57,443 nucleotides of DNA from an uncultured Candidatus Saccharibacteria bacterium (GTDB taxonomy: Bacteria; Patescibacteriota; Minisyncoccia; Minisyncoccales; GWA2-38-27): positions 1 to 57,443 of the forward strand of contig CAZKZC010000001.1 in assembly GCA_964557155.1 (NCBI GenBank), in the 5' to 3' direction. How positions within the stretch are numbered: position 1 is the stretch's first letter; every line of letters starts with the position of its first letter. The translations under genes were made by a program, and so were the position numbers. A model generated the notes under the pieces. That model saw only the letters and a list, made by a program, of their open reading frames with translations. It was not told where the DNA came from and made no database searches. Positions 1,124 through 20,974 of this stretch are shown here, piece after piece.

Positions 1124-1137
1124 AACACTTAATAAAC

Positions 1138-2851: not shown

Positions 2852-2880
2852 AATCCGTCTAGGTCGGACCTAGACGGATT
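2852..2880. repeat. 29-nt hairpin AATCCGTC-N13-GACGGATT (left flank of hicAB)
   Basis: aatccgtctaggtcggacctagacggatt followed by a T run. It has the same 8+13+8 architecture and the same outer stem as 3411-3439 and 41279-41307. Confidence 0.7.
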
Positions 2881-2882
2881 TT

Positions 2883-3128: not shown

Positions 3129-3348
3129 AAACCTGAGAATCAAGTTCTAAATTTGCTAAAATAGATGGTTGAGGAGCCAAATCAAAATCTGTTAGATCTT
3201 CATTTTCTAATTGAAGAGCAATAGCTTCTTTTAGATTAACAATAAGTTCATCAAGAGTTTTTGCTTGAGTAACAACCGGTAAATCAACAGATTCACCAAT
3301 ATAATATTTATCTCCTTTATATATACGGACTTGAATAATCTTTTTCAT
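3121..3348 (-). CDS. hicB: HicB-family antitoxin (UPF0150-like)
   Basis: 75-aa acidic protein (YYIGESVDLPVVTQAKTLDELIVNLKEAIALQLE) immediately upstream of, and overlapping, hicA. Confidence 0.75.
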   Translation of the reverse strand: MKKIIQVRIYKGDKYYIGESVDLPVVTQAKTLDELIVNLKEAIALQLENEDLTDFDLAPQPSILANLELDSQVYA

Positions 3349-3410
3349 ATGTTTTATTATATCATAATTAAAGGATTAAAGCAAAATAATCTCAATAATC
3401 CTAGTTTATG

Positions 3411-3439
3411 AATCCGTCGAGGACGGGCCTCGACGGATT
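3411..3439. repeat. 29-nt hairpin AATCCGTC-N13-GACGGATT (right flank of hicAB)
   Basis: aatccgtcgaggacgggcctcgacggatt followed by a T run. It is in direct orientation relative to 2852-2880. Confidence 0.7.
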
Positions 3440-3475
3440 TTATGTGACATTTTAACACAACTACAACAATAAAGT

Positions 3476-3504
3476 TTGACAAATATATGGATATGTGATA
3501 CAAT
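3476..3504 (+). promoter_or_regulatory. Sigma70-type promoter
   Basis: TTGACA (3476-3481), 17-nt spacer, TGaTACAAT (3499-3504), upstream of ORF 3576. Confidence 0.6.
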
Positions 3505-3575
3505 TAGAGCATTAAAAAATTTAGATCATTGGCAAGTTAATATTAAACTGAAACTGAATTTGAAAGGATAGAAAA

Positions 3576-4700: not shown

Positions 4701-4723
4701 CGAAAAAAGAATTTAAAAATCTT

Positions 4724-4751
4724 AAAGGGATCACCTCGGTGGTCCCTTTTT
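4724..4751. terminator. Bidirectional intrinsic terminator
   Basis: aaagggatcacctcggtggtcccttttt: a GC-rich stem with an A run before and a T run after, between convergent genes. Confidence 0.7.
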
Positions 4752-4764
4752 ATTTTATCTTAAA

Positions 4765-7161: not shown

Positions 7162-7171
7162 AAGACGTTTT

Positions 7172-8596: not shown

Positions 8597-11357
8597 TTGA
8601 ACTATTGGTAATATTTTGATTAATATTTACTATTTCCCCTATATTAACACGAATATCATCCATTGGGTATGGGTTCCCTCCTGAAGGTGGGACACTTTCA
8701 TACCCGGGATAAAGACCTGACAGATCAAGATCAAAATCAAAAGATGGTGTTTGAAATCCAGGAAGGTCAAATCTCTTTTGTTTGCTATAGCTTAAGTCGC
8801 CTAAAGGGATAGATGGAAGCTGGTAATTTATAGGATTAGTTAGTGGAATTTTCTTTAAATTTTCTGGCCAGGGGATATCTATTCTGTTAGCTATTTTGGC
8901 TAGTTCAGCATTCACAGTATCCATAGGAATGTTAATTTTATCTAGAAGAGCATAAGCATCTGGTATTTTAAACATACCATTTTCTACAACTGTTCGTGAT
9001 AAACTTTCAGCTATAGCCTCTTCTACTTTTCTCTTAACATTATCTAGTTGTTCATGAATAGATTTTTTAATTAGGTCTTCAAGTATTTTAGCGGCTTTAT
9101 CAAGCTGAGACTGAATTTGTGACTGAACGGTATTATCAAGAACGCCTTGAATTTGACTAATTCTGCTAGCCACATTTTGCTTCAAAGAACTATTAACATT
9201 TTTACAAAATTTATCAACATTTATATATTTATTATCGCACAAATCGGGTATTTCTGGAAATCTTGGCCAGAAAAAGTGATAATCGGAGAAACCAATATCT
9301 AATGGGATGCCGGAAATTCCTCCACTAACACATCCATTGGGGATAGAAACCAACGAAGAAACTAATCCTAGAAGCATATTTTCTATACTGATGTCTATGC
9401 CTGTAAAATTCAAAATAACTTCTGGTTGTGGAAGGGATATTTCAGGTATTTTCATATCCAAACTAAGCAAATCGGTTAAGTCAATTTCAGGCATTGGAAT
9501 AGGGATAGACGGAAATTTAATATCATTCATTTTTATGGGTAGTGGATCAAGCTGAGGACCATCTGGAATGGCGGGCATATCAGCATAAATAGTTGGAATA
9601 TCAATATCAGGAATTCTTAAAGATGGGTATTGAAAATCTACTTTCATTGAAGAAAGATCTCTTTGACAGCTATTTAGATTGCAGGGTTTTAAATCGGGAA
9701 GAATTAAATCTTCAAAAATCAGACTCGGAAGGCGAACCCTTAGAAAGGGCATAAAGTTAAAAGAAGGTAGATTGATGTCAGGAATTATTGTGTCTGGAAG
9801 TTCTATTTTTGGGAATAAGGTTGAGTTAATAGAAGGCAAAGAAGGGCAATCTAACCGAATACTATTTTGGGAATGATTAGAAACTGTTTGCGAAGCACAA
9901 GAGGCCGATGTTCCTTGGTATGTTTGAGCTCCAGGATTTTCAAATGTTCTATTAAATAAAGGAAGAAACTTGCACGATTCCGGAATGTTCATTTCCCCAG
10001 CCTTTTTTAATTCAGAGCATTTGTTTACTAAGGTGTTGAGATTGCAAGTTGGTGGTGTTGTTTCTCCTTCTGATCTAAATAACTCCTGACATTTTGCGTT
10101 AACATTAGTTATTTCATAGCATATTTCAGGAGGACGAGCACAATTGGTTCCTGTGCAAGTGGAATGTCTTTGTCGTAAAATTTGGCATTGATCAATGATT
10201 GTAAGATGAACAGCATCTTCATTAAAACATTGTTCGTATCTTTCTTGGACAGGGTTGTTATTAATATCTGTTAAGCCGGGCAATTCTTGGCATCTATCAG
10301 ACAACCAAGATAATGTTTGTAAAAACCATTCCAAGTCAATATACTGATTGTTTCCAGGGGCATTTTCCTTTGTGCATTGATAAGAACTGACATCTAATAA
10401 TTGGGTGCAAGAAAAGCTAGCCGGAGGAATCCCCGGAATATCTAGATAGGGAGGGTGAAAAACAATCGGATCTAAAGAGATGTCTGATAATCTGTCTGTT
10501 GGAATATCAGGAAAGGTGATATTGATATCTTGCAGATCAATATCAAAATCGCCTAAATTGGCAGTGTCTGACATCTGAATGCTATCTGGTAAATTTAATC
10601 CAACTTCGTCAATTGATATTCTTCCTAAGTCCAAATCACCTAAACGAACCCCTATTTCAAAAGCCATAGTTATTGGTTTTTGCCCTCCGCCACTTCCAAA
10701 AACGCAAGCATTAATTACGGGGATGGTATTGGTGTTGCACTGAGCTTGACAATGGTTTTTAGCTGAATAAGCCGAATTGTCCAATATATCAATATTTTTT
10801 GAAGCTGAATCAACAACATTTTCGCTAGAAGAAATTATATTGTTTAAATTAGATTCTAGTAATATTGCCTGGTCTTTATCCATTCTTTCTAGTTCTTCAG
10901 CTAAGCCAGTATCCATTTCTGTTTGAAGTAATTCTTTTAAAGAATCTATTTGCTGTGTTTTGCTTTTAATTTTTAATTTGGTTTTTTCTAAATCTTCCTT
11001 ATTATTACAGGTTTCACCGAAGACACCGACATTTCCATCTCTTATACATTGAGATATAGCATTGGCACAATTACATTGGGATGTTTGATTACTTAATTCT
11101 TCGTTAAAAAATTCTAGGTCTTGAGTAGTTTGATTTAATTCGCTAATAATAAATTTTAATCTATTGGGATAGTGAGGGTAATATTCTAGCCATTGGGCAA
11201 AAGCATCCGAACTAGTGCCTGATTTTTCTAGCAATGGAACAAGGATATTAATTAAAACCGCTAGAATTAAAACTCCTGCTATAATATATCTCTTTTTTTG
11301 ATTAAATAGTTTTATCATTTTAATAATCGCTTGTTTCACAATCGTATAATTCTCCAA
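8571..11357 (-). CDS. 928-aa N-terminally anchored Cys-rich protein with many short [LIF]P[DES][IL] motifs
   Basis: One N-terminal helix (YIIAGVLILAVLINILV), coiled-coil stretches, numerous Cys (by-eye estimate, over 30) and repeated motifs such as LPDTIIPDINLPSF, IPDIDIPTIYADMPAIPDGP and FPSIPIPMPEIDL. An alternative start at 11318 (MIKLFNQKK) leaves a 1-nt gap after the upstream stop. Confidence 0.8.
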   Translation of the reverse strand: MENYTIVKQAIIKMIKLFNQKKRYIIAGVLILAVLINILVPLLEKSGTSSDAFAQWLEYYPHYPNRLKFIISELNQTTQDLEFFNEELSNQTSQCNCANAISQCIRDGNVGVFGETCNNKEDLEKTKLKIKSKTQQIDSLKELLQTEMDTGLAEELERMDKDQAILLESNLNNIISSSENVVDSASKNIDILDNSAYSAKNHCQAQCNTNTIPVINACVFGSGGGQKPITMAFEIGVRLGDLDLGRISIDEVGLNLPDSIQMSDTANLGDFDIDLQDINITFPDIPTDRLSDISLDPIVFHPPYLDIPGIPPASFSCTQLLDVSSYQCTKENAPGNNQYIDLEWFLQTLSWLSDRCQELPGLTDINNNPVQERYEQCFNEDAVHLTIIDQCQILRQRHSTCTGTNCARPPEICYEITNVNAKCQELFRSEGETTPPTCNLNTLVNKCSELKKAGEMNIPESCKFLPLFNRTFENPGAQTYQGTSASCASQTVSNHSQNSIRLDCPSLPSINSTLFPKIELPDTIIPDINLPSFNFMPFLRVRLPSLIFEDLILPDLKPCNLNSCQRDLSSMKVDFQYPSLRIPDIDIPTIYADMPAIPDGPQLDPLPIKMNDIKFPSIPIPMPEIDLTDLLSLDMKIPEISLPQPEVILNFTGIDISIENMLLGLVSSLVSIPNGCVSGGISGIPLDIGFSDYHFFWPRFPEIPDLCDNKYINVDKFCKNVNSSLKQNVASRISQIQGVLDNTVQSQIQSQLDKAAKILEDLIKKSIHEQLDNVKRKVEEAIAESLSRTVVENGMFKIPDAYALLDKINIPMDTVNAELAKIANRIDIPWPENLKKIPLTNPINYQLPSIPLGDLSYSKQKRFDLPGFQTPSFDFDLDLSGLYPGYESVPPSGGNPYPMDDIRVNIGEIVNINQNITNSSNEILNILY

Positions 11358-13653
11358 TATCTATATGGAGGTGAGTTATTTTATCTAAGACATATGCTTC
11401 GGGAGCACATTTTTTAGCCGTGTTTATTATTTCATCTATATATTTTTTCTGAAGCTCAGAAGACATATCAAAGTCCACAGCATAAGATTCTTCTGTATCT
11501 CGACAAAAGGTGCCTCCATAATGAGCCGAAACTCTCATTTTGTTTTGTTCTATTCCATAGGTGTGAGAGCACTCTTCCTGATTTTTAGGGCTGATGCCCC
11601 ATTCACATGTTCCGTTATATAGTTTTTCATCAGAAATAGAAGATATTAATCCTATTATTTCCTCTGTTTCTTCTTCTGCTTCTTGATATTTGTCTAGCCC
11701 TTGACGCATACAGGAAAGAAGCTGTTTGAGTGGTTTGGAAGCGTCATTGTCATACTGGTTGTAATTTCGGACACCACTAGTGCAATCAAATCCTTTGGGA
11801 CAGCCGTCTTCTGAGGGTAGTATAGAATGTTCTTTAAGGGGAACGATATACAGAGGGTTGGAATCAGATGAGATTGGCAACGGAGGAGTATTTGCCGGAG
11901 AGCAACAATAAACATCTCTTGGATTGCAACTAGTCATAACTGTTCCGCTAGGACCATAATTACCCTTGGCACTTTCACAGCTTAATAGAGTAAATTCTGG
12001 ATTATTAATACTAGGATCAAAGCAAAGGCGGACAGCGGTATCAAGGTTGTGAAGATTATAGGGGTTTTTGGGCTCTTCTGCGTGGTATAGTACCTTTGGA
12101 AATATCTTCTTTATTTCTTCAATAACTCCAGTATCAATTTCAAGAATTTTATCTTCTGTCTCTTTAATTTCTTCTGATTTTTTGGTGATTTCTTCTACGG
12201 GGCAGGCTTCTCCGTTGCATCCTTGAACGGATTGAAGACATTTTGATTTGCAGAAAACAGCCATTGGGCCACATGGAATTATAGTACAGCATCTATACCA
12301 TGGATTAGGTATGCAAGCACAAGAAGGTTCGCAATAAGTCCGATTGCATTGCGACACAAGCTCGGTCATCTCCTGAACTTGTTGAGCCATTTTTTCAGTT
12401 AAGCGAGATAATTCCTCTAATTTGAAAATAGCAATAATTGCCAATTCTCTAAGATTGTCCATTGTTTCTCCTGTTGGTATTCTAGTGTGGCAACTAATCA
12501 ACTGAACTTCATATGGATCAGCTGTCATCTCTGGGAGAACGGGTTCTTCAGAAAGCTCCTTTATTTTCTGGGGGATATATGGAGCGTCATAAATAGTTCC
12601 TCCCACGGAGCAATAAAAAGTCAAGGCTTCATCTCCCGATTCTTCATAGCCGGATATTTTAATAACTTGATTTCCTAATGCCTCAAAATCTTTTTTAGCC
12701 AATAGAAGATCATTAAGTGTCATAAATTCTTGATTTTGGGTTCGACAAGAAATAACTTCTCCTTCTATTTCTTGAAACTTCCCCAACTCTTTTCTCAATA
12801 ATTCTTTATGCTCAGAAATTTTCTCTTTATACTTTGAAAGGGTTTTAATTTTCCCTTTGTCTATTTCTAGAACCTTTTCTATTCTTTCTCTGGCTGTTGG
12901 GTTGTCATCATCATTCTCGCAAGGATCTCCCGAACAGCCGATAGGCATAGAGCCCGTTTCGGGTTTTGTGCAAAGAGCTTTGGTGTTTTCGCATCGGCAT
13001 TCATCGGTGATCGTTTTTAGGTATTTGTTTAAATCAGAAATTCTGTTAAGCTTATCGTTTTCTAAATTAGAATCGTCTACATCTATTTCTTGTTTGAGAA
13101 AACCTTCAAATTCCGTGATAAGAGTTTCTAATTCTTCTGTTCTTTTTTTCTCCCAAACACTGCCGTCTCTCAATGCTTTTTTTAGTGGCAATTCGGCCAC
13201 AATCCATGTAAGAACTTCTCTGTCTGGAGCAGTATAGGTCTTGATGTCGTCTAGATCAATCGGAGTTAATGGACCAAAATCAAAAATTAATAATTGGGGG
13301 TTAATATTAACCAAGATTAAATATGAAGAAAAAAGAATAATTATTCCCAGAGCAGCACCGGTTAGCTGATCTTTAGCCGCTTTCAATTTAGATGGATCGG
13401 CTCCTGACATTATATATAGAACACCTCCATAAACCAAAGAACCGAAAGCTAAAAGACCTGAAATAGCAATAGCAAAGTTGAATATATATTTTACATAAGA
13501 AGGCAATCCATCTTGAACTGTTTGTGGCGCCTCGCCCATAATGCTTGGATAGTCAACCTCCAAATCTTGGGCTAAGACGAGAGAATAGATAGAAACAGAA
13601 AACAAAAAAACCGTAAAAGAAATTAAGAAAAGTTTTTTAGTTTTCCACAGCAT
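11320..13653 (-). CDS. 777-aa protein: signal peptide + TrbC/VirB2-like pilin module + Cys-rich stalk + C-terminal LAS/M15-like peptidase motifs
   Basis: N-terminus MLWKTKKLFLISFTVFLFSVSIYSLVLAQ. Pilin module GLPSYVKYIFNFAIAISGLLAFGSLVYGGVLYIMSGADPSKLKAAKDQLTGAALGIIILFSSYLILVNINPQL. Cys clusters (SQCNRTYCEPSCACIPNPWYRCCTIIPCGP). C-terminal SAHYGG...AVDFD and THLHIDIG. Confidence 0.85.
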   Translation of the reverse strand: MLWKTKKLFLISFTVFLFSVSIYSLVLAQDLEVDYPSIMGEAPQTVQDGLPSYVKYIFNFAIAISGLLAFGSLVYGGVLYIMSGADPSKLKAAKDQLTGAALGIIILFSSYLILVNINPQLLIFDFGPLTPIDLDDIKTYTAPDREVLTWIVAELPLKKALRDGSVWEKKRTEELETLITEFEGFLKQEIDVDDSNLENDKLNRISDLNKYLKTITDECRCENTKALCTKPETGSMPIGCSGDPCENDDDNPTARERIEKVLEIDKGKIKTLSKYKEKISEHKELLRKELGKFQEIEGEVISCRTQNQEFMTLNDLLLAKKDFEALGNQVIKISGYEESGDEALTFYCSVGGTIYDAPYIPQKIKELSEEPVLPEMTADPYEVQLISCHTRIPTGETMDNLRELAIIAIFKLEELSRLTEKMAQQVQEMTELVSQCNRTYCEPSCACIPNPWYRCCTIIPCGPMAVFCKSKCLQSVQGCNGEACPVEEITKKSEEIKETEDKILEIDTGVIEEIKKIFPKVLYHAEEPKNPYNLHNLDTAVRLCFDPSINNPEFTLLSCESAKGNYGPSGTVMTSCNPRDVYCCSPANTPPLPISSDSNPLYIVPLKEHSILPSEDGCPKGFDCTSGVRNYNQYDNDASKPLKQLLSCMRQGLDKYQEAEEETEEIIGLISSISDEKLYNGTCEWGISPKNQEECSHTYGIEQNKMRVSAHYGGTFCRDTEESYAVDFDMSSELQKKYIDEIINTAKKCAPEAYVLDKITHLHIDIGELYDCETSDY

Positions 13654-13700
13654 TGAATAATTATACCATCACCACTTGTCTCGTGCAACACTGAAATTAA

Positions 13701-13773
13701 ATTTAGCCAGTCCTCCACAGATAGAGTTTCGGCGCGTTGAGTTGGCTTAATCCTCTTGCTTAAAAGCAAGGAA
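13701..13773 (-). pseudogene. Displaced duplicate of the rsmA 3' coding end
   Basis: 73 nt identical to 14115-14187 except for one base, extendable to 77 nt with two differences. It encodes ...SLLLSKRIKPTQRAETLSVEDWLNL but has no upstream gene body. Confidence 0.85.
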
Positions 13774-13833
13774 AGTCTTTTTGAAATTGCTTTATTGTGT
13801 ATTTCATATATGTTAAAATATAATTGTGAGAAT

Positions 13834-13904
13834 GGGCGGGTAGTGAAACGGCATCACAAGTAACTTATACCTATTTATTGTGGGTTCGAATCCCATCCCG
13901 TCCA
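13834..13904 (+). tRNA. tRNA with anticodon UAU (Ile, AUA-reading) by cloverleaf reading
   Basis: Acceptor GGGCGGG/CCCGTCC (one G-U), D arm GTGA-AACGGCA-TCAC, anticodon arm AGTAA-CTTATAC-CTATT (A31-C39 mismatch), T arm GTGGG-TTCGAAT-CCCAT, discriminator A, no encoded CCA. Confidence 0.65.
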
Positions 13905-13961
13905 CACTCACCTTTGACTTTTGCACTATTGACAAAGTTTCTTGTATGGTATAATAAGGGT

Positions 13962-14071
13962 AGTAGGTATAAGTTCGATGCTTTCGAACTCACAAAATAT
14001 ATAACATTTAAAGTTCTTCTTTGTGTTATATGTTGGTTGGCCATTAGCCCCTTCGGGGGCTTTTGGTTTTT
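13962..14071 (+). ncRNA. Candidate ~110-nt orphan structured transcript
   Basis: Promoter TTGACA (13929-13934) and extended -10 TGgTATAAT (13947-13955). Hairpins agttcga-tgctt-tcgaact and atataaca-N16-tgttatat. Terminator gcccc-ttcg-ggggc plus T run (14047-14071). No ORF longer than 7 codons. Confidence 0.3.
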
Positions 14072-14090
14072 GTCAGAAAAACTACCGAAG

Positions 14091-14867
14091 TCAGAGCCCG
14101 CCTTTTTTTGTTAGATTTAGCCAGTTCTCCACAGATAGAGTTTCGGCGCGTTGAGTTGGCTTAATCCTCTTGCTTAAAAGCAAGGAACCGAGTTCCTTTT
14201 TGTCTATATCTAATTTCTTTGATAAATTATTGATAAGTTGTTTTCTTGGTTGAGAGAATCCGGCTTTAACAATTTTGAAAAACTTATCGGGATTGATGTC
14301 GTGTTTCTTCTTAGGAGTTATTTGAATAATAGCACTATCAACTTTTGGAACGGGCTTGAAAGATCTTTTAGATATATATGAAAGAACTTTTGCTTCTGCA
14401 TAAAACTGGACAGAAACAGCTAAGATGCTCATTCTGGGTGGTTTGGCACATATTCTTTGAGCAACCTCTTTTTGAACTATTAAAGTCATTTCTTTTGGAG
14501 GATTCTCTATTTCTAAAAACTTTCTAATAACAGGCGCTGTTATATAGAAAGGCAGGTTCGCTACTATTTTGTATTCATGATTCTTGATTCCTAATTCATG
14601 ATTCTTTAATATATCTCCGTGTATAATCTTTATGTTTTCATAATTCTTAAATTCCTGCTCCAAGAATTTGACTAATCGCTCATCTTTTTCCACAGCAATA
14701 ACCTTTTTAACTCTTTTAACTAATTCTTTCGTCAAGGCCCCTTTGCCTGGTCCAATCTCTAAGACAATATCTGTCTTAAGGAGCTTAGCTCCATTAATAA
14801 CATTAGAGATAGCCCTTTTGTTAATTAAGAAATTTTGGCCGAAATGTTTTATTGGTTTTATTTGCAT
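14091..14867 (-). CDS. rsmA: 16S rRNA (adenine1518/1519-N6)-dimethyltransferase
   Basis: FGQNFLINK, SAM motif EIGPGKGALT, ANLPFYIT; 258 aa. Confidence 0.93.
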   Translation of the reverse strand: MQIKPIKHFGQNFLINKRAISNVINGAKLLKTDIVLEIGPGKGALTKELVKRVKKVIAVEKDERLVKFLEQEFKNYENIKIIHGDILKNHELGIKNHEYKIVANLPFYITAPVIRKFLEIENPPKEMTLIVQKEVAQRICAKPPRMSILAVSVQFYAEAKVLSYISKRSFKPVPKVDSAIIQITPKKKHDINPDKFFKIVKAGFSQPRKQLINNLSKKLDIDKKELGSLLLSKRIKPTQRAETLSVENWLNLTKKGGL

Positions 14868-14885
14868 TATTCAATAATAACAGAT

Positions 14886-14904
14886 AAAAGTGACTCGGTC
14901 ACTT
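14886..14904. repeat. Palindrome AAAAGTGACTCGGTCACTT, second copy
   Basis: Lies in the divergent rsmA / LysM-M23 intergenic region, 14 nt upstream of the -35 TTGACT (14918-14923). Confidence 0.8.
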
Positions 14905-14953
14905 GTGGAAAAGGGGGTTGACTGGATATTTTCGAAAAGGTAGTATAAATAAA

Positions 14954-15976
14954 ATGAGTGATAAGATAAGTTCTTATTTAAGTAAATCATTAATCGTTTT
15001 AGCCGTTTTAATCTTCGGCTTCTTTATTTTCAGCTCAAATTCGGTGTTAAGATCTCTTGAAGATTTTTCTCTTTTAGCTTCAGCTGTAGATTCGGGTCAG
15101 GAATTATTTGTCGCAGGATCTAGTAATATTGCTAGAGAGTCCCCTAATATGAATTTTGTTCAAAATAATAGCTTAGTTGCCGTCGCTCCTCCAATGACGA
15201 TTGATGTTAATACTTTGGGAAGCATGATCGGTGGTATTGAAGAAGATGATGGTACTCGGAAAGAAATTCTTGAATATATTGTTGAGCCAGATGACACTCT
15301 TTCAACAATTGCCGACAAGTTTGATATTTCTTTAAGTACAATTTTAATAGCTAATGATCTCGGGTCTAAGTCAACTATCAAACCAGGTCAAAAACTTATT
15401 ATTCTTCCAGTAACGGGTGTTATTTATCATGTTAAAAATGGAGATACATTGGGTGATATTGCTAAGACATATAAAGGAAAAACAACGGAAATAATTACTG
15501 TTAATAATCTTTCTGGCGAGGGTAACATATTTGTCGGAGATATTTTAGTTATTCCTAATGGGAAAATACAGGTTTCTGGGTCAAGTGCTTACACTGCTAA
15601 TATCCCAGTTGGCTCAAGTTATTTTATTGCTCCTTTAGCCAAATATACAATTACCCAAGGACTTCATTGGTATAATGCTATTGATTTTGCTGCTCCTTGC
15701 GGAACGCCAATATATGCTGCCGCTGCTGGAGTAATTCAGAGAGTGGAATATGGATGGAATGGGGGGGCCGGAAATTATCTTAGAATTTTACATCCCAACG
15801 GTGTCGTTACAATGTATGGACATGTTCAGAAGAGTTTAGTTGTTCCAGGACAAAATGTTTCTCAAGGAGAAAGAATTGCTTTAGTCGGCGGAAAACCAGG
15901 AACAACTGGTGCTGGAATATCAACTGGATGTCATGTTCATTTTGATGTCCGTGGAGCTCGCAACCCCTTTCAATAA
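14954..15976 (+). CDS. LysM-repeat M23 peptidoglycan metalloendopeptidase
   Basis: N-terminal anchor helix. Two LysM repeats (YIVEPDDTLSTIADKF; YHVKNGDTLGDIAKTY). M23 motifs HWYNAIDF and GCHVHFDV. The ATG at 14954 lies 7 nt after a TAGTAT -10 box. The listed ORF starts at a TTG at 14903. Confidence 0.88.
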   Translation: MSDKISSYLSKSLIVLAVLIFGFFIFSSNSVLRSLEDFSLLASAVDSGQELFVAGSSNIARESPNMNFVQNNSLVAVAPPMTIDVNTLGSMIGGIEEDDGTRKEILEYIVEPDDTLSTIADKFDISLSTILIANDLGSKSTIKPGQKLIILPVTGVIYHVKNGDTLGDIAKTYKGKTTEIITVNNLSGEGNIFVGDILVIPNGKIQVSGSSAYTANIPVGSSYFIAPLAKYTITQGLHWYNAIDFAAPCGTPIYAAAAGVIQRVEYGWNGGAGNYLRILHPNGVVTMYGHVQKSLVVPGQNVSQGERIALVGGKPGTTGAGISTGCHVHFDVRGARNPFQ

Positions 15977-15979
15977 TAT

Positions 15980-16468
15980 ATGAAAAAAGCTTTATTCTTA
16001 TTTTTAGTCAGTATGCTTTTCTTTCCGGCTTTCGCCATGGCCAAACCTTTAGTTCCTTGCAGTTTGACTGGTGATGGCGATCTGCCAGCTTGTACGTTTT
16101 GTCATCTTTTTGTAATGTTTGGGAATATTACAGATTTTTTGTTTAAAGAAATAATTCCAATTTTAGCTGGTTTAATGATAGCCATTGGCGGAGTATATTA
16201 TCTTATTAGTCGGGGTGATCCTGAAAAACTGGCTAGTGCTAAGAAGATATTTTCGTCGGTTGCCATAGGCCTCTTGATAGCTTATAGTGCTTGGTTAATT
16301 GTTAATATGTTCTTTTTGGTAATTGGAATATCAGACTGGGAAGGTTTTCGTAATGGTTGGTGGAAAATTAATTGCCCTACGAGTCAAACACAATCATCAA
16401 CGCCTACCTATGATGAGATTGACAAATTAATGAAAGAAAACGAGAACATATTTAAAGTAAAACATTAA
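15980..16468 (+). CDS. Stand-alone TrbC/VirB2-like pilin-type protein (162 aa)
   Basis: Signal peptide MKKALFLFLVSMLFFPAFAMA, then two helices separated by SRGDPEKLASAKK (IIPILAGLMIAIGGVYYLI / IFSSVAIGLLIAYSAWLIVNMF). Same module as in the 474- and 777-aa proteins. Confidence 0.75.
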   Translation: MKKALFLFLVSMLFFPAFAMAKPLVPCSLTGDGDLPACTFCHLFVMFGNITDFLFKEIIPILAGLMIAIGGVYYLISRGDPEKLASAKKIFSSVAIGLLIAYSAWLIVNMFFLVIGISDWEGFRNGWWKINCPTSQTQSSTPTYDEIDKLMKENENIFKVKH

Positions 16469-16471
16469 AAT

Positions 16472-16544
16472 GCCCCTATAACTCAATTGGTAGAGTAACG
16501 GCCTCTTAAGCCGGTTGTTCCAGGTTCAAGTCCTGGTGGGGGCA
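16472..16544 (+). tRNA. tRNA-Lys (CUU)
   Basis: Acceptor GCCCCTA/TGGGGGC, anticodon loop CTCTTAA, T arm CCAGG-TTCAAGT-CCTGG; 73 nt, no CCA. Confidence 0.9.
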
Positions 16545-16597
16545 CAAATATATCAAAACATTATTTAGAGAATCAGGCTTGTTTTTTTTGGAGAGAT

Positions 16598-16882
16598 ATG
16601 ATATGCTTAAAAAACATGTTAAAGACAGAAGAAAAATTAAAGATAATTAAAGAGCATAAAATAAATGATGCTGATACTGGATCTGACGATGTTCAGATTG
16701 TTTTGCTTTCAGAAGAAATTAAAGAATTACTTTCTCACTTAAGGAAGCATCCTAAAGATCTTCATTCTAAAAAAGGTCTTTTAAAAATGGTTTCCCAAAG
16801 AAGAAAACTTTTAAAACATTTAAAAAAGGAAGACGAAAAAAGATATAATAAGATCGTTAAAGCCGTAGGGCTTAAACGATAG
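16598..16882 (+). CDS. rpsO: 30S ribosomal protein S15
   Basis: DTGSDDVQIVLLSEEI...HLRKHPKDLHSKKGLLKMVSQRRKLLKHLKK. The in-frame ATG at 16616 (MLKTEEK) gives the canonical ~88-aa length. Confidence 0.92.
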   Translation: MICLKNMLKTEEKLKIIKEHKINDADTGSDDVQIVLLSEEIKELLSHLRKHPKDLHSKKGLLKMVSQRRKLLKHLKKEDEKRYNKIVKAVGLKR

Positions 16883-16988
16883 AATCAAGAATTATGAATC
16901 AAGAATCAAGAATCAAGAATCAAGAATCAAGAATCATGAATTCGACGACGTCGTTCATAATTCATTATTCATAATTCATTATTCAAAT
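16883..16988 (+). repeat. Heptamer tandem arrays forming a long imperfect hairpin
   Basis: Nine 7-mers of AATCAAG type (16883-16945), a central palindrome cgacg-a-cgtcg, then five TTCATAA/TTCATTA 7-mers (16954-16988) that are partly complementary to the left arm. Confidence 0.85.
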
Positions 16989-16990
16989 TT

Positions 16991-17494
16991 ATGGTTATAA
17001 AACATATTGGACAACGCGTAGGAGTATTAATAGATGTTCAAAACCTATATCACTCAGCCAAAAATTTATATAACGCCAGAGTTAATTTCAAAGAGATTTT
17101 AAAAACATCAATAGACGAGAGAAGTTTAATCAGGGTTTTTGCTTATGTTATAAGCACAAAAACGGGAGAAGAAAAACCCTTTTTTGAAGCTCTAACAAGA
17201 CTAGGTATTGAAACAAGAGTTAAGGAATTACAGGAGTTTTATGGAGGAGCAAAGAAAGCTGATTGGGATGTTGGATTAGTTATAGATGCTATTAGAATCG
17301 CTCCTAGCGTTGATACATTGGTAATAGTTTCCGGAGACGGAGATTTTATTTCTTTAGTAGAATATTTAAAAAATCAAGGGAAAAGAGTAGAAGTAGTTGC
17401 TTTCGGAAAATCAGCCTCTTCTAAGTTAAGAGAAATAGCCGACGAGTTTATTGACTTGGGTTCAACTCCCAAAAAATATTTATTAAAAAAATGA
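16991..17494 (+). CDS. NYN-domain (LabA/DUF88-like) putative RNase
   Basis: VGVLIDVQNLYHSAK ... VIVSGDGDFISLVEYLKNQGKRVEVVAFG. Its stop overlaps the pnp start (ATGA). Confidence 0.75.
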   Translation: MVIKHIGQRVGVLIDVQNLYHSAKNLYNARVNFKEILKTSIDERSLIRVFAYVISTKTGEEKPFFEALTRLGIETRVKELQEFYGGAKKADWDVGLVIDAIRIAPSVDTLVIVSGDGDFISLVEYLKNQGKRVEVVAFGKSASSKLREIADEFIDLGSTPKKYLLKK

Positions 17495-19581
17495 GTAAAG
17501 AAAAATTTAATTTAAAACTAGACGGAAAAGATATTGAAATTGAAACTAATAGCTTAGCCGAACAAGCCAACGGAAGTGCTTTGGTTCGTTGCGGAGACAC
17601 AATGGTTTTAGCAACAGCTGTAATGGATAGACAAGATCGAGAAGATCGTGGGTTTTTTCCTTTGACAGTGGAATATCAAGAAAGATATTATGCTGCTGGA
17701 AAAATTGGTGGTGGGCGCTTCATGAAAAGAGAGGCCAGGCCTTCTGATGAAGCAACTTTAAACGCTAGGATAATAGATAGGTCTATTAGACCAAGATTTC
17801 CTAAAGAGTTGACTAAAGAGATTCAGGTAATTATAACCGTTTTATCTTGGGACGGGGAAAACGATCCAGATGTTTTGAGCTTAATAGCTGCCTCTACTGC
17901 CCTATCAATTTCTAACATACCATGGAATGGTCCTTTGGGGGCCATTAGAGTTTGTCGTAAAGACAACCAGCTTATTCTAAATCCTAGCTATGAAGAACGC
18001 AAAGAAAATGATATAGATATAATGTTTGTCGGACTTTATGAAAAAAAAGAGCTTGTTATTAATATGATCGAGGGTGGTTGTAAAGAGGTGGACGAAAAAT
18101 CAATAATGGATGCTTACGATTTCGGCGAAAAACATATTAAAAAACTGCTTGATTTTCAAAAAGAAATCCAAGATAAAATCGGAGAAGAAAAATATGTTTT
18201 AGAGCCAGCTAAAAAAGACATTGAATTAGAAAAAGAAATAAATGATTTTTTGGGAGACAAATACGAAAAAGCATTCTTTCAAAAAGATAAAGCAAAAAAA
18301 TCAAAAGATATTGAGAGTTTAACAAAAGAACTTGGTTCTTTTCTTGACGAAAAATATCTCGAAGATGATAAAAAGAAATATGCTTTCAACTTTTTAGACA
18401 AAGAAGGAGATAGATTGGTTCATGAAGGAGTGTTAAAAGAAAACAAAAGAGTTGATGGGAGAAGGTTAGACGAAGTTAGAAAGATTACTGCCGATGTGTC
18501 TATTCTTCCAAGAACTCACGGAACAGGATTATTCTCAAGAGGTTTAACTAAATCATTATCAATACTAACTTTAGGATCTCCTGGAGATCAACAGTTAATT
18601 GACGGAATGGAAATAAACGGAGATAAAAGGTTTATGCATCATTACAACTTCCCTCCTTATTCTGTTGGAGAAACTGGTTTTATGAGGGGTCCTGGAAGAA
18701 GAGAAATCGGTCACGGATTGTTAGCCGAAAAAGCATTGACGCCACTTATTCCTAGTTCAGAAGAATATCCTTATACTATTAGAATTGTATCTGAAATTCT
18801 TTCTTCAAACGGTTCTAGTTCTATGGCATCTACTTCTAGTTCTGCTTTAGCTTTGATGGATGCCGGAGTTCCAATTAAAAGATTAGTAACGGGAGTGGCT
18901 ATGGGGTTAATCAAAAATGATAAGGAGTATAAGATACTAACTGATATTCAGGGACCAGAAGATCATCACGGTGATATGGATTTTAAAGTAGCTGGAACGC
19001 GTGAAGGAATTACAGCTATTCAAATGGATGTAAAAATAGAAGGAATAACCAGAGCCATTATGGAAAAAACATTAAAGATGGCTGAAAAGGCACGTTATTC
19101 AATATTAGATGTTATGGAAAAAACCATTTCTAAGCCAGCTGAACCTTCTAAGTATGCACCTCGCATTATAACTATTACAATAAATCCAAGCAAAATTGGT
19201 GAAATAATAGGTCCTGGTGGAAAAGTTATTAACAAGATTATTGATGAGACAGGAGCTCAAATAGATATTGAGGATTCAGGTCAAGTTTTTGTTACTTCTG
19301 ATAATAAAGAATCAGCTGAGAAAGCCGTTAATTGGATTAAGAGTATTGTTGAAGAAGCTGAAATAGGAAAAATATATGAAGGAGAAGTAAAAAAAATTAT
19401 GGAGTTTGGTGCTTTTGTTGAAGTTCTTCCCGGTAAAGATGGTCTAATTCATATTTCTAAATTATCTGATAAAAGAGTAGAAAAAGTTGAAGACATCGTT
19501 AAGGAAGGAGAGATTGTCTCAGTCAAAGTTCTCTCCATAGACGCCCAAGGAAAAATAAGCCTTCAACTTGTTAAAAAATAA
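17491..19581 (+). CDS. pnp: Polyribonucleotide nucleotidyltransferase (PNPase)
   Basis: Two RNase PH domains, KH (IGEIIGPGGKVINKI) and S1 (GEVKKIMEFGAFVEVLPGKDGLIHISKL); 696 aa. Confidence 0.95.
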   Translation: MSKEKFNLKLDGKDIEIETNSLAEQANGSALVRCGDTMVLATAVMDRQDREDRGFFPLTVEYQERYYAAGKIGGGRFMKREARPSDEATLNARIIDRSIRPRFPKELTKEIQVIITVLSWDGENDPDVLSLIAASTALSISNIPWNGPLGAIRVCRKDNQLILNPSYEERKENDIDIMFVGLYEKKELVINMIEGGCKEVDEKSIMDAYDFGEKHIKKLLDFQKEIQDKIGEEKYVLEPAKKDIELEKEINDFLGDKYEKAFFQKDKAKKSKDIESLTKELGSFLDEKYLEDDKKKYAFNFLDKEGDRLVHEGVLKENKRVDGRRLDEVRKITADVSILPRTHGTGLFSRGLTKSLSILTLGSPGDQQLIDGMEINGDKRFMHHYNFPPYSVGETGFMRGPGRREIGHGLLAEKALTPLIPSSEEYPYTIRIVSEILSSNGSSSMASTSSSALALMDAGVPIKRLVTGVAMGLIKNDKEYKILTDIQGPEDHHGDMDFKVAGTREGITAIQMDVKIEGITRAIMEKTLKMAEKARYSILDVMEKTISKPAEPSKYAPRIITITINPSKIGEIIGPGGKVINKIIDETGAQIDIEDSGQVFVTSDNKESAEKAVNWIKSIVEEAEIGKIYEGEVKKIMEFGAFVEVLPGKDGLIHISKLSDKRVEKVEDIVKEGEIVSVKVLSIDAQGKISLQLVKK

Positions 19582-19592
19582 AATCGCAAAAA

Positions 19593-19622
19593 CTGCCCGA
19601 GGCCCGTCCTCGGGCAGTTTTT
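19593..19622 (+). terminator. Intrinsic terminator after pnp
   Basis: ctgcccgagg-cccgt-cctcgggcag followed by a T run. Confidence 0.8.
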
Positions 19623-19666
19623 GATTCTCCTTGATTTTACGCTCAATTGATTTATTTTTTGAAACC

Positions 19667-20410
19667 ATGAAAGACTATAAAATTTTAGCGTTAGATGAAA
19701 CAGGCAAAGCTAGCTTTGATCATCCGTCTAAGAACTTTGTTTTATCGGGTTTTATTTTACCAGAAAAGTTAAAACCGAAACTGGATAAATCAATTCGTAA
19801 ATTAAAGAAAAAATATTTTGCTGACGAGGAAATAGTATTTCATTGTAGAGATATGTTACGGAAGAAAGGTTCTTTTGCGATCTTGCGTACAGATTCAGCC
19901 AAAGAATTAAAATTCTGGTCGGAATTTATTTCCATTCTGAACGCAAAATTTTTATCATTAGCTTTTGTTATTGCTGATAAAAATAAAGCTAAAAAAATAG
20001 GATGGAATGATATCGCTATATTAAGACGATCTTATAGTAAAATGTTAGAAGAGTTTACAAAAAAACACTTAATTAAAAATAATGGGAAAATTGTAGCAGA
20101 ATCAGATCCTTATCAAGATAGGTACTTAATAGAAGCACATAATAGATTGCAATCAATAGGTGTACCATCGGAAGGCATTACGGGTTCGGACTATAGAAAT
20201 AAAATTACATCTTTAAGCTTGGTGAATAAATTAAATTTAGATGTAGATGTTCAAATGGCAGATAGTTTAGCGATAATGGCAGATATGGTTTATGGAATGA
20301 AAATTGGCATAAAGAAAAAACCTACGAGAGTACAAGTCATAATGAAGAGACTCATAAATAGAAAAATGACTGACAAAGATAATCCAGGAATTTTTGAAAT
20401 ACTCGTTTAA
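19667..20410 (+). CDS. DUF3800-like protein
   Basis: The start MKDYKILALDETG and the C-terminal DVQMADSLA resemble the DUF3800 DESG...ADxxA pattern. The listed ORF starts earlier, at 19631. Confidence 0.6.
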   Translation: MKDYKILALDETGKASFDHPSKNFVLSGFILPEKLKPKLDKSIRKLKKKYFADEEIVFHCRDMLRKKGSFAILRTDSAKELKFWSEFISILNAKFLSLAFVIADKNKAKKIGWNDIAILRRSYSKMLEEFTKKHLIKNNGKIVAESDPYQDRYLIEAHNRLQSIGVPSEGITGSDYRNKITSLSLVNKLNLDVDVQMADSLAIMADMVYGMKIGIKKKPTRVQVIMKRLINRKMTDKDNPGIFEILV

Positions 20411-20512
20411 ATCTAAACAAAAAAGCCGACCATGGCTAACCGCACATATATCGACTCTTCATATTTCTATTATAGCCGTTTTCAACAAAGGATGTCAACC
20501 CTCCCCAATGCT

Positions 20513-20596
20513 GTTAAGGAAGGAGAGATTGTTTCAGTAAAAGTTCTCTCTATAGATGCCCAAGGAAAAATAAGCCTTCAACTTGTTAAAAAATAA
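20513..20596 (+). pseudogene. Displaced duplicate of the pnp 3' coding end
   Basis: 86-nt repeat including the stop. Its 4 differences from 19498-19583 are all third-position synonymous (gtc/gtt, gtc/gta, tcc/tct, gac/gat). It encodes ...VKEGEIVSVKVLSIDAQGKISLQLVKK. Confidence 0.85.
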
Positions 20597-20626
20597 AAAC
20601 TTGACAAAAACCTAATAATATTTCAG

Positions 20627-20650
20627 AACTCGCCCTGGGCGAGTTTTGTT
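20627..20650 (+). terminator. Intrinsic terminator after the pnp remnant
   Basis: aactcgcc-ctg-ggcgagtt followed by a T run. Confidence 0.7.
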
Positions 20651-20847
20651 TTATGTTCGTCGTCGGAGGTCCGTACCTCGGATAGCAATCCGAGCTCGGA
20701 CATCTACGCAACTCTTCCGTCGTTTCTCAAGGAGCAATTTTAGTGTTTTAGATGATTTAATAGTAATAGGAGGCTAACCTACAATGGTTCTGGATGTTCT
20801 AGAATAAGTACATAAGTTGTACATATTATGAAACATGAATAAACATT

Positions 20848-20873
20848 AAATGTGCGAAGCAAATGTGCAAAGC
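20848..20873. repeat. Tandem 13-mers AAATGTGCGAAGC / AAATGTGCAAAGC
   Basis: Two adjacent copies about 100 nt upstream of ORF 20975, followed by a duplicated TGTTATAAT. Confidence 0.7.
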
Positions 20874-20974
20874 TAAGCTTTGAACATTTTATTTTTTTAT
20901 TTGCTATTTATTTTATTTTTTTTATTATGTTATAATGTTATAATAGATTAAATCAACTTTTAATTTTTAAATTT

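What the first reader, a model, noticed from the sequence alone, without database searches (positions are those of the whole stretch)
19498..20598. DUF3800 cassette inserted at the pnp 3' end; the flanking 86-bp repeats differ only at synonymous positions
The last 83 nt of pnp, including the stop codon, plus the 3 nt that follow (19498-19583) are repeated at 20513-20598. The 4 differences are all third-codon-position synonymous changes. Each copy is followed by a different terminator. The 929 bp between them carry only a DUF3800-like gene. Synonymous-only divergence implies that both copies evolved as functional coding ends in different lineages. That is what is expected if an incoming element brought its own pnp 3' end and displaced the resident one, as happens with 3'-end-targeting integrative elements. 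No integrase remains. This is the second case of the pattern in the window.
Basis: seen in the sequence. Interest (0 to 1): 0.7.

Follow-up and report, generated by a model that had tools for sequence, protein, structure and literature searches.

The report
Integrase-less DUF3800 and small-RNA cassette at pnp
A roughly 1-kb laterally acquired cassette, carrying an RNase H2-like DUF3800 gene and a previously undescribed antisense small RNA, sits at the end of the essential pnp gene of a Patescibacteria (CPR) bacterium between two versions of the gene's last 86 bases; it is a real but fairly ordinary kind of genomic islet whose way of inserting is still unknown.

Summary
The 86-nt repeat (19498-19583 and 20513-20598) has four differences, all synonymous third-codon changes. 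It appears in five independent assemblies.

A 95%-PNPase relative has an empty site. A 96% relative carries a PIN toxin-antitoxin (TA) cassette at the same spot.

The cargo is a two-gene unit. One gene is DUF3800, with an RNase HII/H2-like fold. The other is a convergent RNA of about 45 nt with a perfect promoter, a covarying hairpin and a U-tail. It has no Rfam match. It lies 3' of every complete DUF3800 gene examined and nowhere else.

Units up to 91% identical sit in unrelated contexts across Patescibacteria, often among TA or defence genes. At least ten are bounded by 20-162-nt repeats of local sequence (fusA, murJ, hisS, terminators). Across five coding repeats, counting the window's rsmA repeat, 14 of 17 differences are synonymous.

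For rsmA in this window, and more weakly for hisS elsewhere, relatives show the orphan copy is the resident gene end.

A dedicated integrase is not supported. None is present, and no att sequence or target is conserved.

Best reading: homology-assisted insertion of an integrase-less, TA/defence-like cassette.

The parts
17491..19581 (+). pnp (polynucleotide phosphorylase), intact; its last 86 nt are repeat copy 1
   Evidence: ORF list. Pfam hits to RNase_PH x2, KH and S1. 100-88% identical orthologues in relatives.
19498..19583 (+). Repeat copy 1: the functional pnp 3' end, including the stop codon and 2 further nt
   Evidence: It carries two window-specific third-position states (19518 C, 19524 C) not seen in relatives or in copy 2.
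19587..19623 (+). Terminator 1 (16-bp stem plus T-run). It is shared with relatives L047 and L049; in L049 the loop is inverted.
19624..19660 (+). Spacer ending in ATTGATTTATTTTTT (19646-19660). In relative L047 the same sequence directly precedes a different (PIN) cassette, so this marks the left edge of an insertion hot spot.
   Evidence: Homology between DUF3800 units of different genomes begins at 19657-19667.
19667..20410 (+). DUF3800 gene, 247 aa, with an RNase HII/H2-like fold. Invariant residues include the D10-E11 motif, D62, E145, D151 and Q196xxD199.
   Evidence: Pfam PF12686. Alignment A1. AlphaFold2 model with pLDDT 92. Foldseek top hits are RNase HII/H2 structures 1eke, 1io2 and 3puf.
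20413..20498 (-). Small RNA gene convergent with DUF3800. The promoter is TTGACA (20498-20493), an 18-nt spacer and TATAAT (20474-20469). The transcript, roughly 20462 to 20414, is a 14-pair hairpin with a conserved loop followed by a U-run.
   Evidence: 12/12 promoter match. Fold of -16.8 kcal/mol, z = -3.8. In 38 sequences 99.6% of pair cells are paired, 7 pairs show compensatory changes and 0/500 shuffles reach this. Covariance-model hit at 20413-20478, 76 bits. No Rfam match.
20499..20512 (+). 14-nt linker between the conserved unit and repeat copy 2. 20512|20513 is the one clearly novel junction.
   Evidence: Unit homology ends at 20498. The repeat starts at 20513.
20513..20598 (+). Repeat copy 2: an orphan pnp 3' end with the reading frame and stop codon intact. 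Gene callers fuse it into a spurious 54-aa ORF (20432-20596).
   Evidence: At repeat positions 21 and 27 it has the states found in all relatives.
20599..20892 (+). Sequence after copy 2 that is absent from relatives L047 and L049. It contains terminator 2 (20624-20648), a GC-rich ~75-90-nt repeat element (20655-20744) and a hairpin (20868-20882). Homology to relatives resumes at 20893.
13697..14187 (-). Second case of the same architecture. The rsmA 3'-end repeat (14187-14111 attached to the gene; 13773-13697 orphan) flanks a 414-bp insert with its own terminator and tRNA-Ile(UAU) (13834-13905, + strand).
   Evidence: Relative L054 lacks the insert and is collinear with the orphan copy and its downstream sequence.

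Best explanation
The region is a small, integrase-less accessory cassette acquired laterally from a related Patescibacteria lineage.

Its functional core is a two-gene unit (about 19661-20498). It comprises a DUF3800 protein with an RNase HII/H2-like nuclease fold and a convergent RNA of about 45 nt with its own promoter and terminator hairpin. By its neighbours and its architecture, the unit behaves like a selfish toxin-antitoxin or defence-type module. That function is inferred, not shown.

In a donor lineage the unit sat in an insertion hot spot just downstream of the pnp terminator. The incoming DNA carried the donor's pnp end, terminator 1, the spacer and the unit. It recombined with the recipient using the pnp homology. 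This was either a Campbell-type single crossover of a circularised fragment, or one homologous crossover plus one illegitimate join at 20512|20513.

The donor-type end stayed attached to pnp. The recipient's own last 86 nt were displaced downstream as an orphan. The two repeat copies are therefore orthologous gene ends from two lineages. This explains why they differ only at synonymous sites and why similarity stops at the stop codon.

Shown:
- the repeat and its synonymous-only differences;
- presence/absence polymorphism at the site;
- mobility of the unit;
- the RNA gene and its structure;
- the resident status of the orphan copy for rsmA, and more weakly for hisS.

Inferred:
- that copy 2 is the resident copy at pnp;
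- the recombination route;
- the TA/defence function.
For: - Empty site in relative L049 and a different cassette at the same junction in L047.
- Units 84-87% identical in nucleotides to the window's lie in unrelated contexts. None of 40 GTDB loci is next to pnp.
- About ten unit-only cassettes of 0.8-1.2 kb are bounded by 20-162-nt direct repeats of whatever lies next to them. These include the fusA and murJ 3' ends, the hisS and GT2 5' ends, terminators and promoters.
- In five coding repeats, counting the window's rsmA repeat, 14 of 17 differences are synonymous. In pnp, fusA and hisS together, 12 of 12 are third-position synonymous (P about 2e-6 by position alone). In L065 the repeat differences preserve a terminator hairpin.
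- In the three cassette-linked 3'-end cases (pnp, fusA, murJ) the repeat ends 0-3 nt after the stop codon. This is expected for two orthologues and not for a target-site duplication.
- The orphan copy is the resident end for rsmA. The same holds more weakly for hisS: its start codon overlaps the upstream gene's stop as ATGA, its N-terminal length matches relatives, and 33 of 35 nt match relative L071 against 29 of 35 for the functional copy.
- No integrase in the window. No relative on IMG/VR or plasmid records.
- Neighbouring slots hold PIN, HigBA, MazF, Phd and YafQ modules or restriction-modification genes.
- The literature links DUF3800 to non-coding RNAs, type VII retrons and Cas12a2 (PMC5737381, PMC7736814, PMC10910872).
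Against: - For pnp itself, terminator 1 (after copy 1) is shared with both close relatives. Terminator 2 and the ~290 nt after copy 2 are not. Read naively, this suggests copy 1 is the resident copy. My model has to assume a donor from the terminator-1 clade and an atypical intergenic region in the recipient.
- No closer cassette-free relative exists in the databases I could search.
- RecA-type recombination over 40 nt with 6 mismatches (L037) would be very inefficient. That case therefore needs the anchor-plus-illegitimate-join route.
- About 70% of loci show no flanking repeat.
- De novo insertion at so many different sites is not explained by homology alone.
- No experiment shows toxicity, RNA expression or nuclease activity.
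Confidence: 0.55

Rival explanations
1. This is a classical site-specific integration. An element with an attP that mimics the pnp 3' end was integrated by a tyrosine or serine integrase. That integrase is now deleted or encoded elsewhere and acts in trans, as for an integrase-less, att-flanked CIME or satellite element.
For: - attL/attR-like direct repeats with a 41-nt identical block lie at the 3' end of a conserved gene.
- The site is empty in a relative.
- In L047 an island is flanked by two tRNA-Lys copies.
- In L034 four copies of a 162-nt repeat separate successive cassettes, as in tandem accretion.
- In L047 the PIN cassette is flanked by a short ATTGA(G)ATTTA repeat.
Against: - No integrase in the 57-kb window or in any repeat-bounded cassette.
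- The repeat-bounded segments contain only the unit plus at most ~280 nt of spacer in about ten independent cases. That leaves no room for a decayed integrase.
- Units share no conserved att-like sequence outside the ORF and the RNA gene.
- Units 84-87% identical in nucleotides to the window's use different targets.
- Repeat length and composition vary with the local context.
Confidence: 0.2
2. The DUF3800 and small-RNA unit is itself an autonomous mobile element. The RNase H-fold protein, perhaps together with its RNA, would catalyse insertion at the ends of conserved genes and generate long duplications of the target.
For: - The protein and the RNA are linked 1:1 in all complete loci and the RNA is found nowhere else.
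- Contexts are extremely varied even for near-identical units.
- The cassettes contain nothing but the unit, with junctions within 5-14 nt of the unit's edges in L037 and in the window.
- The RNase H-like fold is shared with DDE and DEDD recombinases (fold relationship from general knowledge).
Against: - The best structural matches are RNase HII/H2 enzymes, not transposases or RuvC.
- The RNA is nearly invariant, so it cannot encode target specificity.
- There are no terminal inverted repeats and no fixed-length target duplication.
- Synonymous-only repeat differences and repeat edges at stop codons contradict a simple target-site duplication.
- Unrelated TA cassettes in the same arrays are bounded by the same repeats. 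The mechanism is therefore not specific to DUF3800.
- pnp joins copy 1 with the same first 20 nt of repeat that an empty allele has at that position. A homing nuclease recognising that junction would therefore also cut the occupied allele.
Confidence: 0.1
3. Copy 1 with terminator 1 is the resident end. A foreign segment (about 19661-20892) was inserted into the intergenic hot spot. It happened to carry a fragment of another strain's pnp end, together with that strain's terminator and downstream sequence.
For: - Homology to L047 runs through pnp and terminator 1 to 19637, and the spacer ending at 19660 is also shared. It resumes only at 20893.
- L049 has terminator 1 and only 28 nt in place of the whole segment.
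- The GC-rich element at 20655-20744 recurs next to other islands in L047.
Against: - It requires a donor that already had the same unit-then-orphan arrangement, so it explains nothing about how that arrangement arose.
- In the two cases where relatives decide the matter (rsmA firmly, hisS more weakly), the orphan is the resident copy.
- Copy 2 carries the clade-typical states at two sites where copy 1 is unique.
Confidence: 0.1
4. The repeat arose by local tandem duplication followed by decay, or it is an assembly artefact that joins two strains.
For: Short contigs L005 and L006 break or loop within the identical 41-nt block. L006 is 1034 bp with a 19-nt terminal overlap, which gives a 1015-bp period.
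Against: - Five independent contigs span the whole structure.
- The sequence between the copies is unrelated to pnp's surroundings in relatives, and its unit occurs in unrelated contexts elsewhere.
- A neutral orphan copy should accumulate changes at all codon positions, yet 4 of 4 here are synonymous (12 of 12 over pnp, fusA and hisS).
- The looped contigs are what a de Bruijn graph produces from a repeat.
Confidence: 0.02

Closest known systems
Integrative islands and prophages that insert into the 3' end of a tRNA or protein gene and supply a replacement gene end; also their integrase-less derivatives, such as CIMEs (cis-mobilisable elements at the fda 3' end in Streptococcus thermophilus) and tycheposon satellites (from my own knowledge)
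   Same: The cassette is flanked by direct repeats made of the target gene's end. The gene stays intact and an orphan copy is left behind. The cassette is present or absent among relatives. Similarity between the repeat copies stops at the end of the gene. The cargo consists of TA or defence-type genes.
   Different: There is no integrase anywhere nearby. The element is only about 1 kb. No att sequence is conserved among related units. Near-identical units use many different targets, including 5' gene ends and intergenic terminators. Repeat length ranges from 20 to 162 nt.
DUF3800-associated structured RNA motifs (DUF3800-I to -XI; Weinberg et al. 2017, PMC5737381)
   Same: A conserved structured RNA is encoded directly next to a DUF3800 gene, on the opposite strand, and ends in a Rho-independent terminator. 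Its function is unknown.
   Different: It matches none of the Rfam 15 models. It is very small, a single hairpin of about 45 nt, and has its own consensus promoter. In this dataset it was found only in Patescibacteria-type loci (some records carry other bin labels).
Toxin-antitoxin modules with a cis-encoded antisense RNA antitoxin overlapping the toxin's 3' end (type I systems such as txpA/RatA and bsrG/SR4 of Bacillus subtilis; from my own knowledge)
   Same: A protein gene and a small RNA gene converge and overlap in the 3' UTR. The compact two-gene unit moves as a cassette and sits among other TA modules.
   Different: The protein is a 247-aa RNase H2-like enzyme, not a small membrane peptide. 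The overlap covers only about 45 nt after the stop codon. Toxicity and neutralisation are untested.
Homology-facilitated illegitimate recombination during natural transformation (de Vries and Wackernagel 2002; from my own knowledge)
   Same: One side of the foreign DNA is anchored in a conserved homologous gene. The other side is joined at a non-homologous point. No recombinase is carried by the insert.
   Different: The classical cases usually delete recipient DNA. Here the join lies upstream of the end of the homology and creates a duplication. The process has not been demonstrated in CPR bacteria.

Membership tests
Site-specific integrative element targeting a gene 3' end | Direct repeats (attL/attR) made of the target gene's end flank the element | tested here: met
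   An 86-nt repeat, 95% identical.
Site-specific integrative element targeting a gene 3' end | An integrase or recombinase is encoded in the element | tested here: not met
   Only DUF3800 and the RNA gene lie between the repeats. No scanned ORF of 90 aa or more in the window hits an integrase or transposase Pfam family.
Site-specific integrative element targeting a gene 3' end | Related elements share a conserved att sequence and the same target | tested here: not met
   Homology among units is confined to the ORF and the RNA gene. Units 84-87% identical in nucleotides to the window's lie at pnp, next to tRNA-Glu, next to tRNA-Asn and at a terminator after a 131-aa gene.
Site-specific integrative element targeting a gene 3' end | Relatives have an empty site, and the element-borne copy replaces the resident gene end | tested here: inconclusive
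   The empty site is confirmed in L049. The replacement direction is shown for rsmA and more weakly for hisS in L037. For pnp the shared terminator 1 argues the other way.
CIME-like integrase-less att-flanked element | Flanked by att-like repeats, lacks recombination genes, and a related autonomous element uses the same site | tested here: inconclusive
   The first two features are met. No autonomous partner was found on IMG/VR, plasmid or phage records, but CPR mobile elements are poorly sampled.
DUF3800 (Pfam PF12686) | Profile match with an N-terminal DE motif and a C-terminal QxxD motif | tested here: met
   21.2 bits against a cutoff of 21. D10-E11 and Q196-x-x-D199 are invariant in 20 homologues. 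The motif definitions are from PMC7736814.
DUF3800 (Pfam PF12686) | RNase H2-like fold | tested here: met
   AlphaFold2 model with pLDDT 92. Foldseek top hits are RNase HII/H2 structures 1eke, 1io2 and 3puf, with probability about 1.0 and TM-score 0.4-0.5.
Rfam DUF3800-I to -XI RNA motifs | Match to one of the curated covariance models | tested here: not met
   No hit at E <= 10 in 19560-20700. No hit at the gathering threshold in 11 related loci.
Structured small RNA gene | Promoter, a helix supported by covariation on the transcribed strand, and a terminator | tested here: met
   12/12 promoter match. 14 pairs, 99.6% paired, 7 pairs with double changes, 0/500 shuffles reach this. Many G-U pairs would be C-A mismatches on the other strand. 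A U-run follows the helix. Transcription itself was not testable.
Toxin-antitoxin module (antisense-RNA antitoxin type) | The protein is toxic and the RNA neutralises it | not testable with these tools
   Only the architecture and the neighbourhood (arrays of PIN, HigBA, MazF, Phd and YafQ modules) point this way. There is no PADLOC hit.
Free-standing homing endonuclease | A known homing-endonuclease fold, and a target site destroyed in the occupied allele | tested here: not met
   The fold is RNase HII-like. pnp joins copy 1 with the same first 20 nt of repeat that an empty allele has at that position.
Transposon or insertion sequence | Terminal inverted repeats and a short target-site duplication of fixed length | tested here: not met
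   There are no terminal inverted repeats; only a weak 28-nt pair at 71% complementarity, placed unrelated to the cassette ends. Flanking repeats are 20-162 nt and imperfect in a synonymous pattern.

The most novel reading that the evidence does not exclude
The DUF3800 protein and its dedicated hairpin RNA form a new kind of autonomous mobile element in CPR bacteria. An RNase H2-fold enzyme with an RNA cofactor would insert the 0.85-kb unit at the ends of conserved genes while rebuilding the gene end. This would also explain the long-unexplained partnership between DUF3800 genes and structured RNAs across bacteria.
Probability: 0.1. Interest if true: 0.85.

Novelty: new variant of a known kind. 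Interest (0 to 1): 0.5.

Why it matters
The finding gives a well-resolved example of how streamlined CPR genomes gain accessory genes without carrying integrases. Minimal cassettes are slotted in at the ends of essential genes (pnp, rsmA, fusA, murJ, hisS). A donor-derived gene end keeps the gene working and the recipient's own end is left behind as a datable orphan.

It also adds a twelfth, very compact RNA partner to the unexplained DUF3800 and RNA association. The promoter, strand and structure are clearly defined, and the RNA is linked 1:1 to its protein. This makes the pair easy to test, for example as a toxin-antitoxin pair or as a nuclease with an RNA cofactor.

If the pair turned out to drive its own insertion, it would be a new class of mobile element. 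If not, it is one more selfish or defence module in hot spots, and the finding is of specialist interest only.

Tried and rejected
- **Assembly artefact.** Rejected. Five independent contigs span the structure. The looped 1034-bp contig L006 is what a de Bruijn graph produces from the repeat, and it is not evidence for a circular form.
- **Known RNA family.** Rfam scans found nothing at the motif.
- **Known defence system.** PADLOC and NCBIfam gave nothing meaningful.
There were no relatives on IMG/VR contigs or PLSDB plasmids. Only a 31% match on one uncultured phage turned up.
- **Metagenome scan for other pnp ends.** I used a third-position-degenerate pattern and found only the L047 contig, so no closer cassette-free relative was obtained.
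- **Recombination breakpoint in pnp.** I looked at sliding identity against L047, L049 and L050. Divergence is uniform. There are 3 window-specific changes in copy 1 against 1.6 expected, which is not significant.
- **Identical DUF3800 proteins in different contexts.** I checked P0102, seen on 24 contigs. All share one context.
- **tRNA-Glu fragment duplication in L007.** A 12-nt match turned out to be chance.
- **Integron-like attC reading.** The window repeat starts with GTTAAGG, close to GTTRRRY, but the other junctions show no common motif. I dropped this idea.
- **Common target motif at the inner repeat boundaries.** None was found.
- **Pairing of the RNA with the DUF3800 start region.** Only the palindromic CCATGG could pair, and start contexts vary. 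I did not pursue this.

Full report
**1. Observation**

It lies at 19498-19583 and 20513-20598, is 86 nt long and has four mismatches. The ORF at 17491-19581 is pnp, with RNase_PH x2, KH and S1 domains. In its frame the four differences are GTC/GTT, GTC/GTA, TCC/TCT and GAC/GAT. All are third-position and synonymous, and the last 41 nt are identical.

Two different terminator hairpins follow the copies, at 19587-19623 and 20624-20648. The DUF3800 ORF is 19667-20410 (PF12686, 21.2 bits against a cutoff of 21).

The whole arrangement, with the same four differences, lies inside single contigs from five separate samples and assemblers: L001-L004 and L053. It is therefore not an assembly artefact.

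A 77-nt repeat of the rsmA 3' end flanks a 414-bp insert with tRNA-Ile(UAU).

**2. What the cargo is**

The protein has 179 detectable close homologues. Those that carry names or organism labels are from Patescibacteria. Nucleotide homology between the window and 40 GTDB loci starts within about 6 nt of the ATG. For the closest relatives it ends at 20498, 88 nt after the stop codon.

That 3' stretch, read on the opposite strand, is a small gene. It has a perfect TTGACA-18-TATAAT promoter (20498-20469). It then has a 14-pair hairpin with a conserved 5-nt GGAUA apical loop, and a U-run.

Across 38 loci, 99.6% of pair cells are paired and 7 pairs show compensatory double changes. None of 500 shuffles reaches this. 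The many G-U pairs would be C-A mismatches on the coding strand, which fixes the strand of the RNA.

A covariance model finds the motif once directly 3' of every complete DUF3800 gene, and twice in tandem in L015, L017, L019 and L020. It finds it nowhere else in 464 kb, apart from one marginal hit at E = 0.04. No Rfam family matches.

The protein model (pLDDT 92) resembles RNase HII/H2. D10-E11 and Q196xxD199 are invariant.

The literature already links DUF3800 to eleven unexplained RNA motifs (PMC5737381), to type VII retrons as an RNase H2-like partner (PMC7736814) and to Cas12a2 loci (PMC10910872). This RNA is therefore a new member of a known but unexplained partnership. The family has 1114 clusters at 50% identity at E <= 1e-3.

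**3. Polymorphism and mobility**

The closest PNPase relatives differ at this spot.
- L049 (95% identical) has pnp, terminator 1, 28 nt and then the next gene. This is an empty site.
- L047/L048 (96%) has a ~1-kb cassette of a 78-aa ORF, a PIN-domain gene and a 68-aa ORF. It begins at exactly the same point, after ATTGATTTATTTTTT, where the DUF3800 unit begins in the window.
- L050 and L051 (88%) differ again.

None of the 40 GTDB DUF3800 loci is near pnp or shares any neighbour with the window. The closest units are 84-87% identical in nucleotides to the window's. They lie next to tRNA-Glu (L007), next to tRNA-Asn (L008) and after a 131-aa gene (L065).

Neighbouring slots typically hold TA or defence genes. 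In L034 the unit is one cassette in an array of PIN-TA, DUF3800, HigBA, PIN/Phd and YafQ modules. Four copies of a 162-nt repeat separate the first three cassettes.

**4. The repeats recur and are not target-site duplications**

Local alignment of flanks against shuffled controls found significant flanking repeats in about 10 of 37 GTDB loci, and also in L065. Each repeat is made of whatever lies next to the unit:
- the fusA 3' end (L027, 34 nt);
- the murJ 3' end (L030, 33 nt);
- the hisS 5' end (L037, 40 nt);
- the 5' end of a GT2 gene (L046);
- terminators or promoters (L012, L013, L034, L065).

The repeat-bounded segments are 0.8-1.2 kb and hold only the unit.

Differences between copies are synonymous in 4 of 4 (pnp), 2 of 2 (fusA) and 6 of 6 (hisS) cases. 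Overall, 14 of 17 are synonymous across five coding repeats, counting the window's rsmA repeat. In L065 the differences preserve the terminator stem.

In the three cassette-linked 3'-end cases (pnp, fusA, murJ), similarity stops 0-3 nt after the stop codon. L027 even has TAA in one copy and TAG in the other.

A neutral orphan would accumulate changes at all positions, and a staggered-cut duplication would not end at stop codons. The two copies are therefore orthologous functional sequences from two lineages, joined recently enough that the orphan has not yet decayed.

**5. Which copy is resident**

For rsmA, relative L054 lacks the insert. Its gene end and the start of the next gene are collinear with the window's orphan copy. 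The gene-attached copy has a different tail (LTKKGGL*), its own terminator and the tRNA.

For hisS in L037, three observations point the same way.
- The orphan's ATG overlaps the upstream gene's stop codon as ATGA.
- Its N-terminal length matches that of relatives.
- It matches relative L071 at 33 of 35 nt, against 29 of 35 for the functional copy.

The functional hisS now starts at an ATG inside the cassette's -35 box.

For pnp the evidence is mixed. Copy 2 has the clade-typical states at two sites where copy 1 is unique. However, terminator 1, after copy 1, is the one shared with L047 and L049. The 294 nt after copy 2 are absent from those relatives.

This is consistent if the donor belonged to the terminator-1 clade and carried the unit in the hot spot after ATTGATTTATTTTTT. 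No closer cassette-free relative was available to prove it.

**6. Mechanism**

A dedicated integrase is unlikely. None is present in the window or in the cassettes. There is no conserved att sequence and no conserved target, and repeat lengths vary. No phage or plasmid relative was found.

I favour homology-assisted insertion. The incoming fragment carried the donor's gene end next to the unit. It recombined through that homology, either as a circle (Campbell type) or by one homologous and one illegitimate crossover. The one clearly novel junction is 20512|20513.

The window encodes type IV pilus machinery. This fits DNA uptake, though that link is an inference.

How the unit reaches entirely new sites remains unexplained. 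This leaves room, at about 10%, for the unit being mobile in its own right.

The TA or defence role of the unit is inferred from its architecture and neighbourhood only.

**7. Verdict**

The resident copy at pnp is unproven.

This is a new variant of a known kind and is of moderate interest. Its main added value is the newly defined RNA partner of DUF3800 and the recurrent pattern of gene-end duplication in CPR genomes.

Noticed in passing
window 13697-14187: A 414-bp insert at the rsmA 3' end carries tRNA-Ile with anticodon UAU (13834-13905) and supplies rsmA with a new C-terminal tail and terminator. Relative L054 lacks the insert. A tRNA gene is travelling here as a gene-end cassette.
   Followed up: partly
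window 19587-19623 versus L049 7090-7123: The pnp terminator hairpin of L049 is the exact reverse complement of the window's. The stem is the same and the loop is flipped (CCCGTC against GACGGG). This looks like an inversion of a palindromic hairpin between close relatives.
   Followed up: no
window 20655-20744; L047 1576-1666 and 3143-3207: A GC-rich repeat element of about 75-90 nt (TTCGTCGTCGAGAGGTCCG...CGGACCTCTACGCAACTC...TTTCTCGGGAAGCGATTTT) contains two hairpins. It recurs beside accessory cassettes in this lineage, including ~50 nt after the second tRNA-Lys copy in L047. Its fold is not better than shuffles (z = -0.9). Its nature is unknown.
   Followed up: partly
L047 320-393 and 3019-3090: A 2.6-kb island (NUDIX, a 78-aa ORF and Fic) is flanked by two copies of tRNA-Lys(CUU) and has no integrase. 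The window has a single tRNA-Lys (16472-16545) directly followed by rpsO. This is the same integrase-less, repeat-flanked pattern at a tRNA gene.
   Followed up: partly
L037 5929-6000 and 6770-6830: The displaced 5' end of hisS survives as an 18-codon ORF. Its stop codon lies 1 nt before the DUF3800 start, which suggests possible translational coupling. The working hisS now starts at an ATG that lies inside the -35 box (ATGTCAA) of the cassette's small-RNA promoter.
   Followed up: partly
L037 9921-10500 versus L071 7350-7929: An AAA_14/DUF4143 ATPase gene is 98% identical between two genomes whose surrounding genes are only ~79% identical. This suggests recent lateral transfer of that gene.
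   Followed up: no
L015, L017, L019, L020 (about 70-80 nt beyond the first RNA copy): In these four loci the DUF3800-associated RNA gene is tandemly duplicated (two covariance-model hits each).
   Followed up: no
window 20432-20596: Gene callers report a 54-aa ORF here in several assemblies. It is a chimera of cassette sequence fused to the orphan pnp end and is almost certainly not a real gene.
   Followed up: yes
window 54-1123: dnaA appears as two overlapping ORFs (54-413 and 371-1123). Only the second hits the DnaA domains. This may be a frameshift or a start-site problem next to dnaN (1297-2427). The window therefore lies near the replication origin.
   Followed up: no
window 2424-2466 and 3476-3518: Two similar promoter-like sequences (TTGACAAATAT...GATAyAAT), 72% identical over 43 nt, lie upstream of a gap after dnaN and of the ORF at 3576-4700.
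   Followed up: no
L020 462-587: There is a LOOT RNA (RF03000) hit at 84.7 bits in a genome record labelled Bdellovibrionales that otherwise looks like a Patescibacteria-type locus.
   Followed up: no
L008, L013, L020, L025, L028 and other GTDB records: Many 'binchicken' and SRP MAG records that carry this Patescibacteria-type DUF3800 unit are labelled Gammaproteobacteria, Saccharibacteria or Bdellovibrionales. The bin-level taxonomy is probably unreliable.
   Followed up: no
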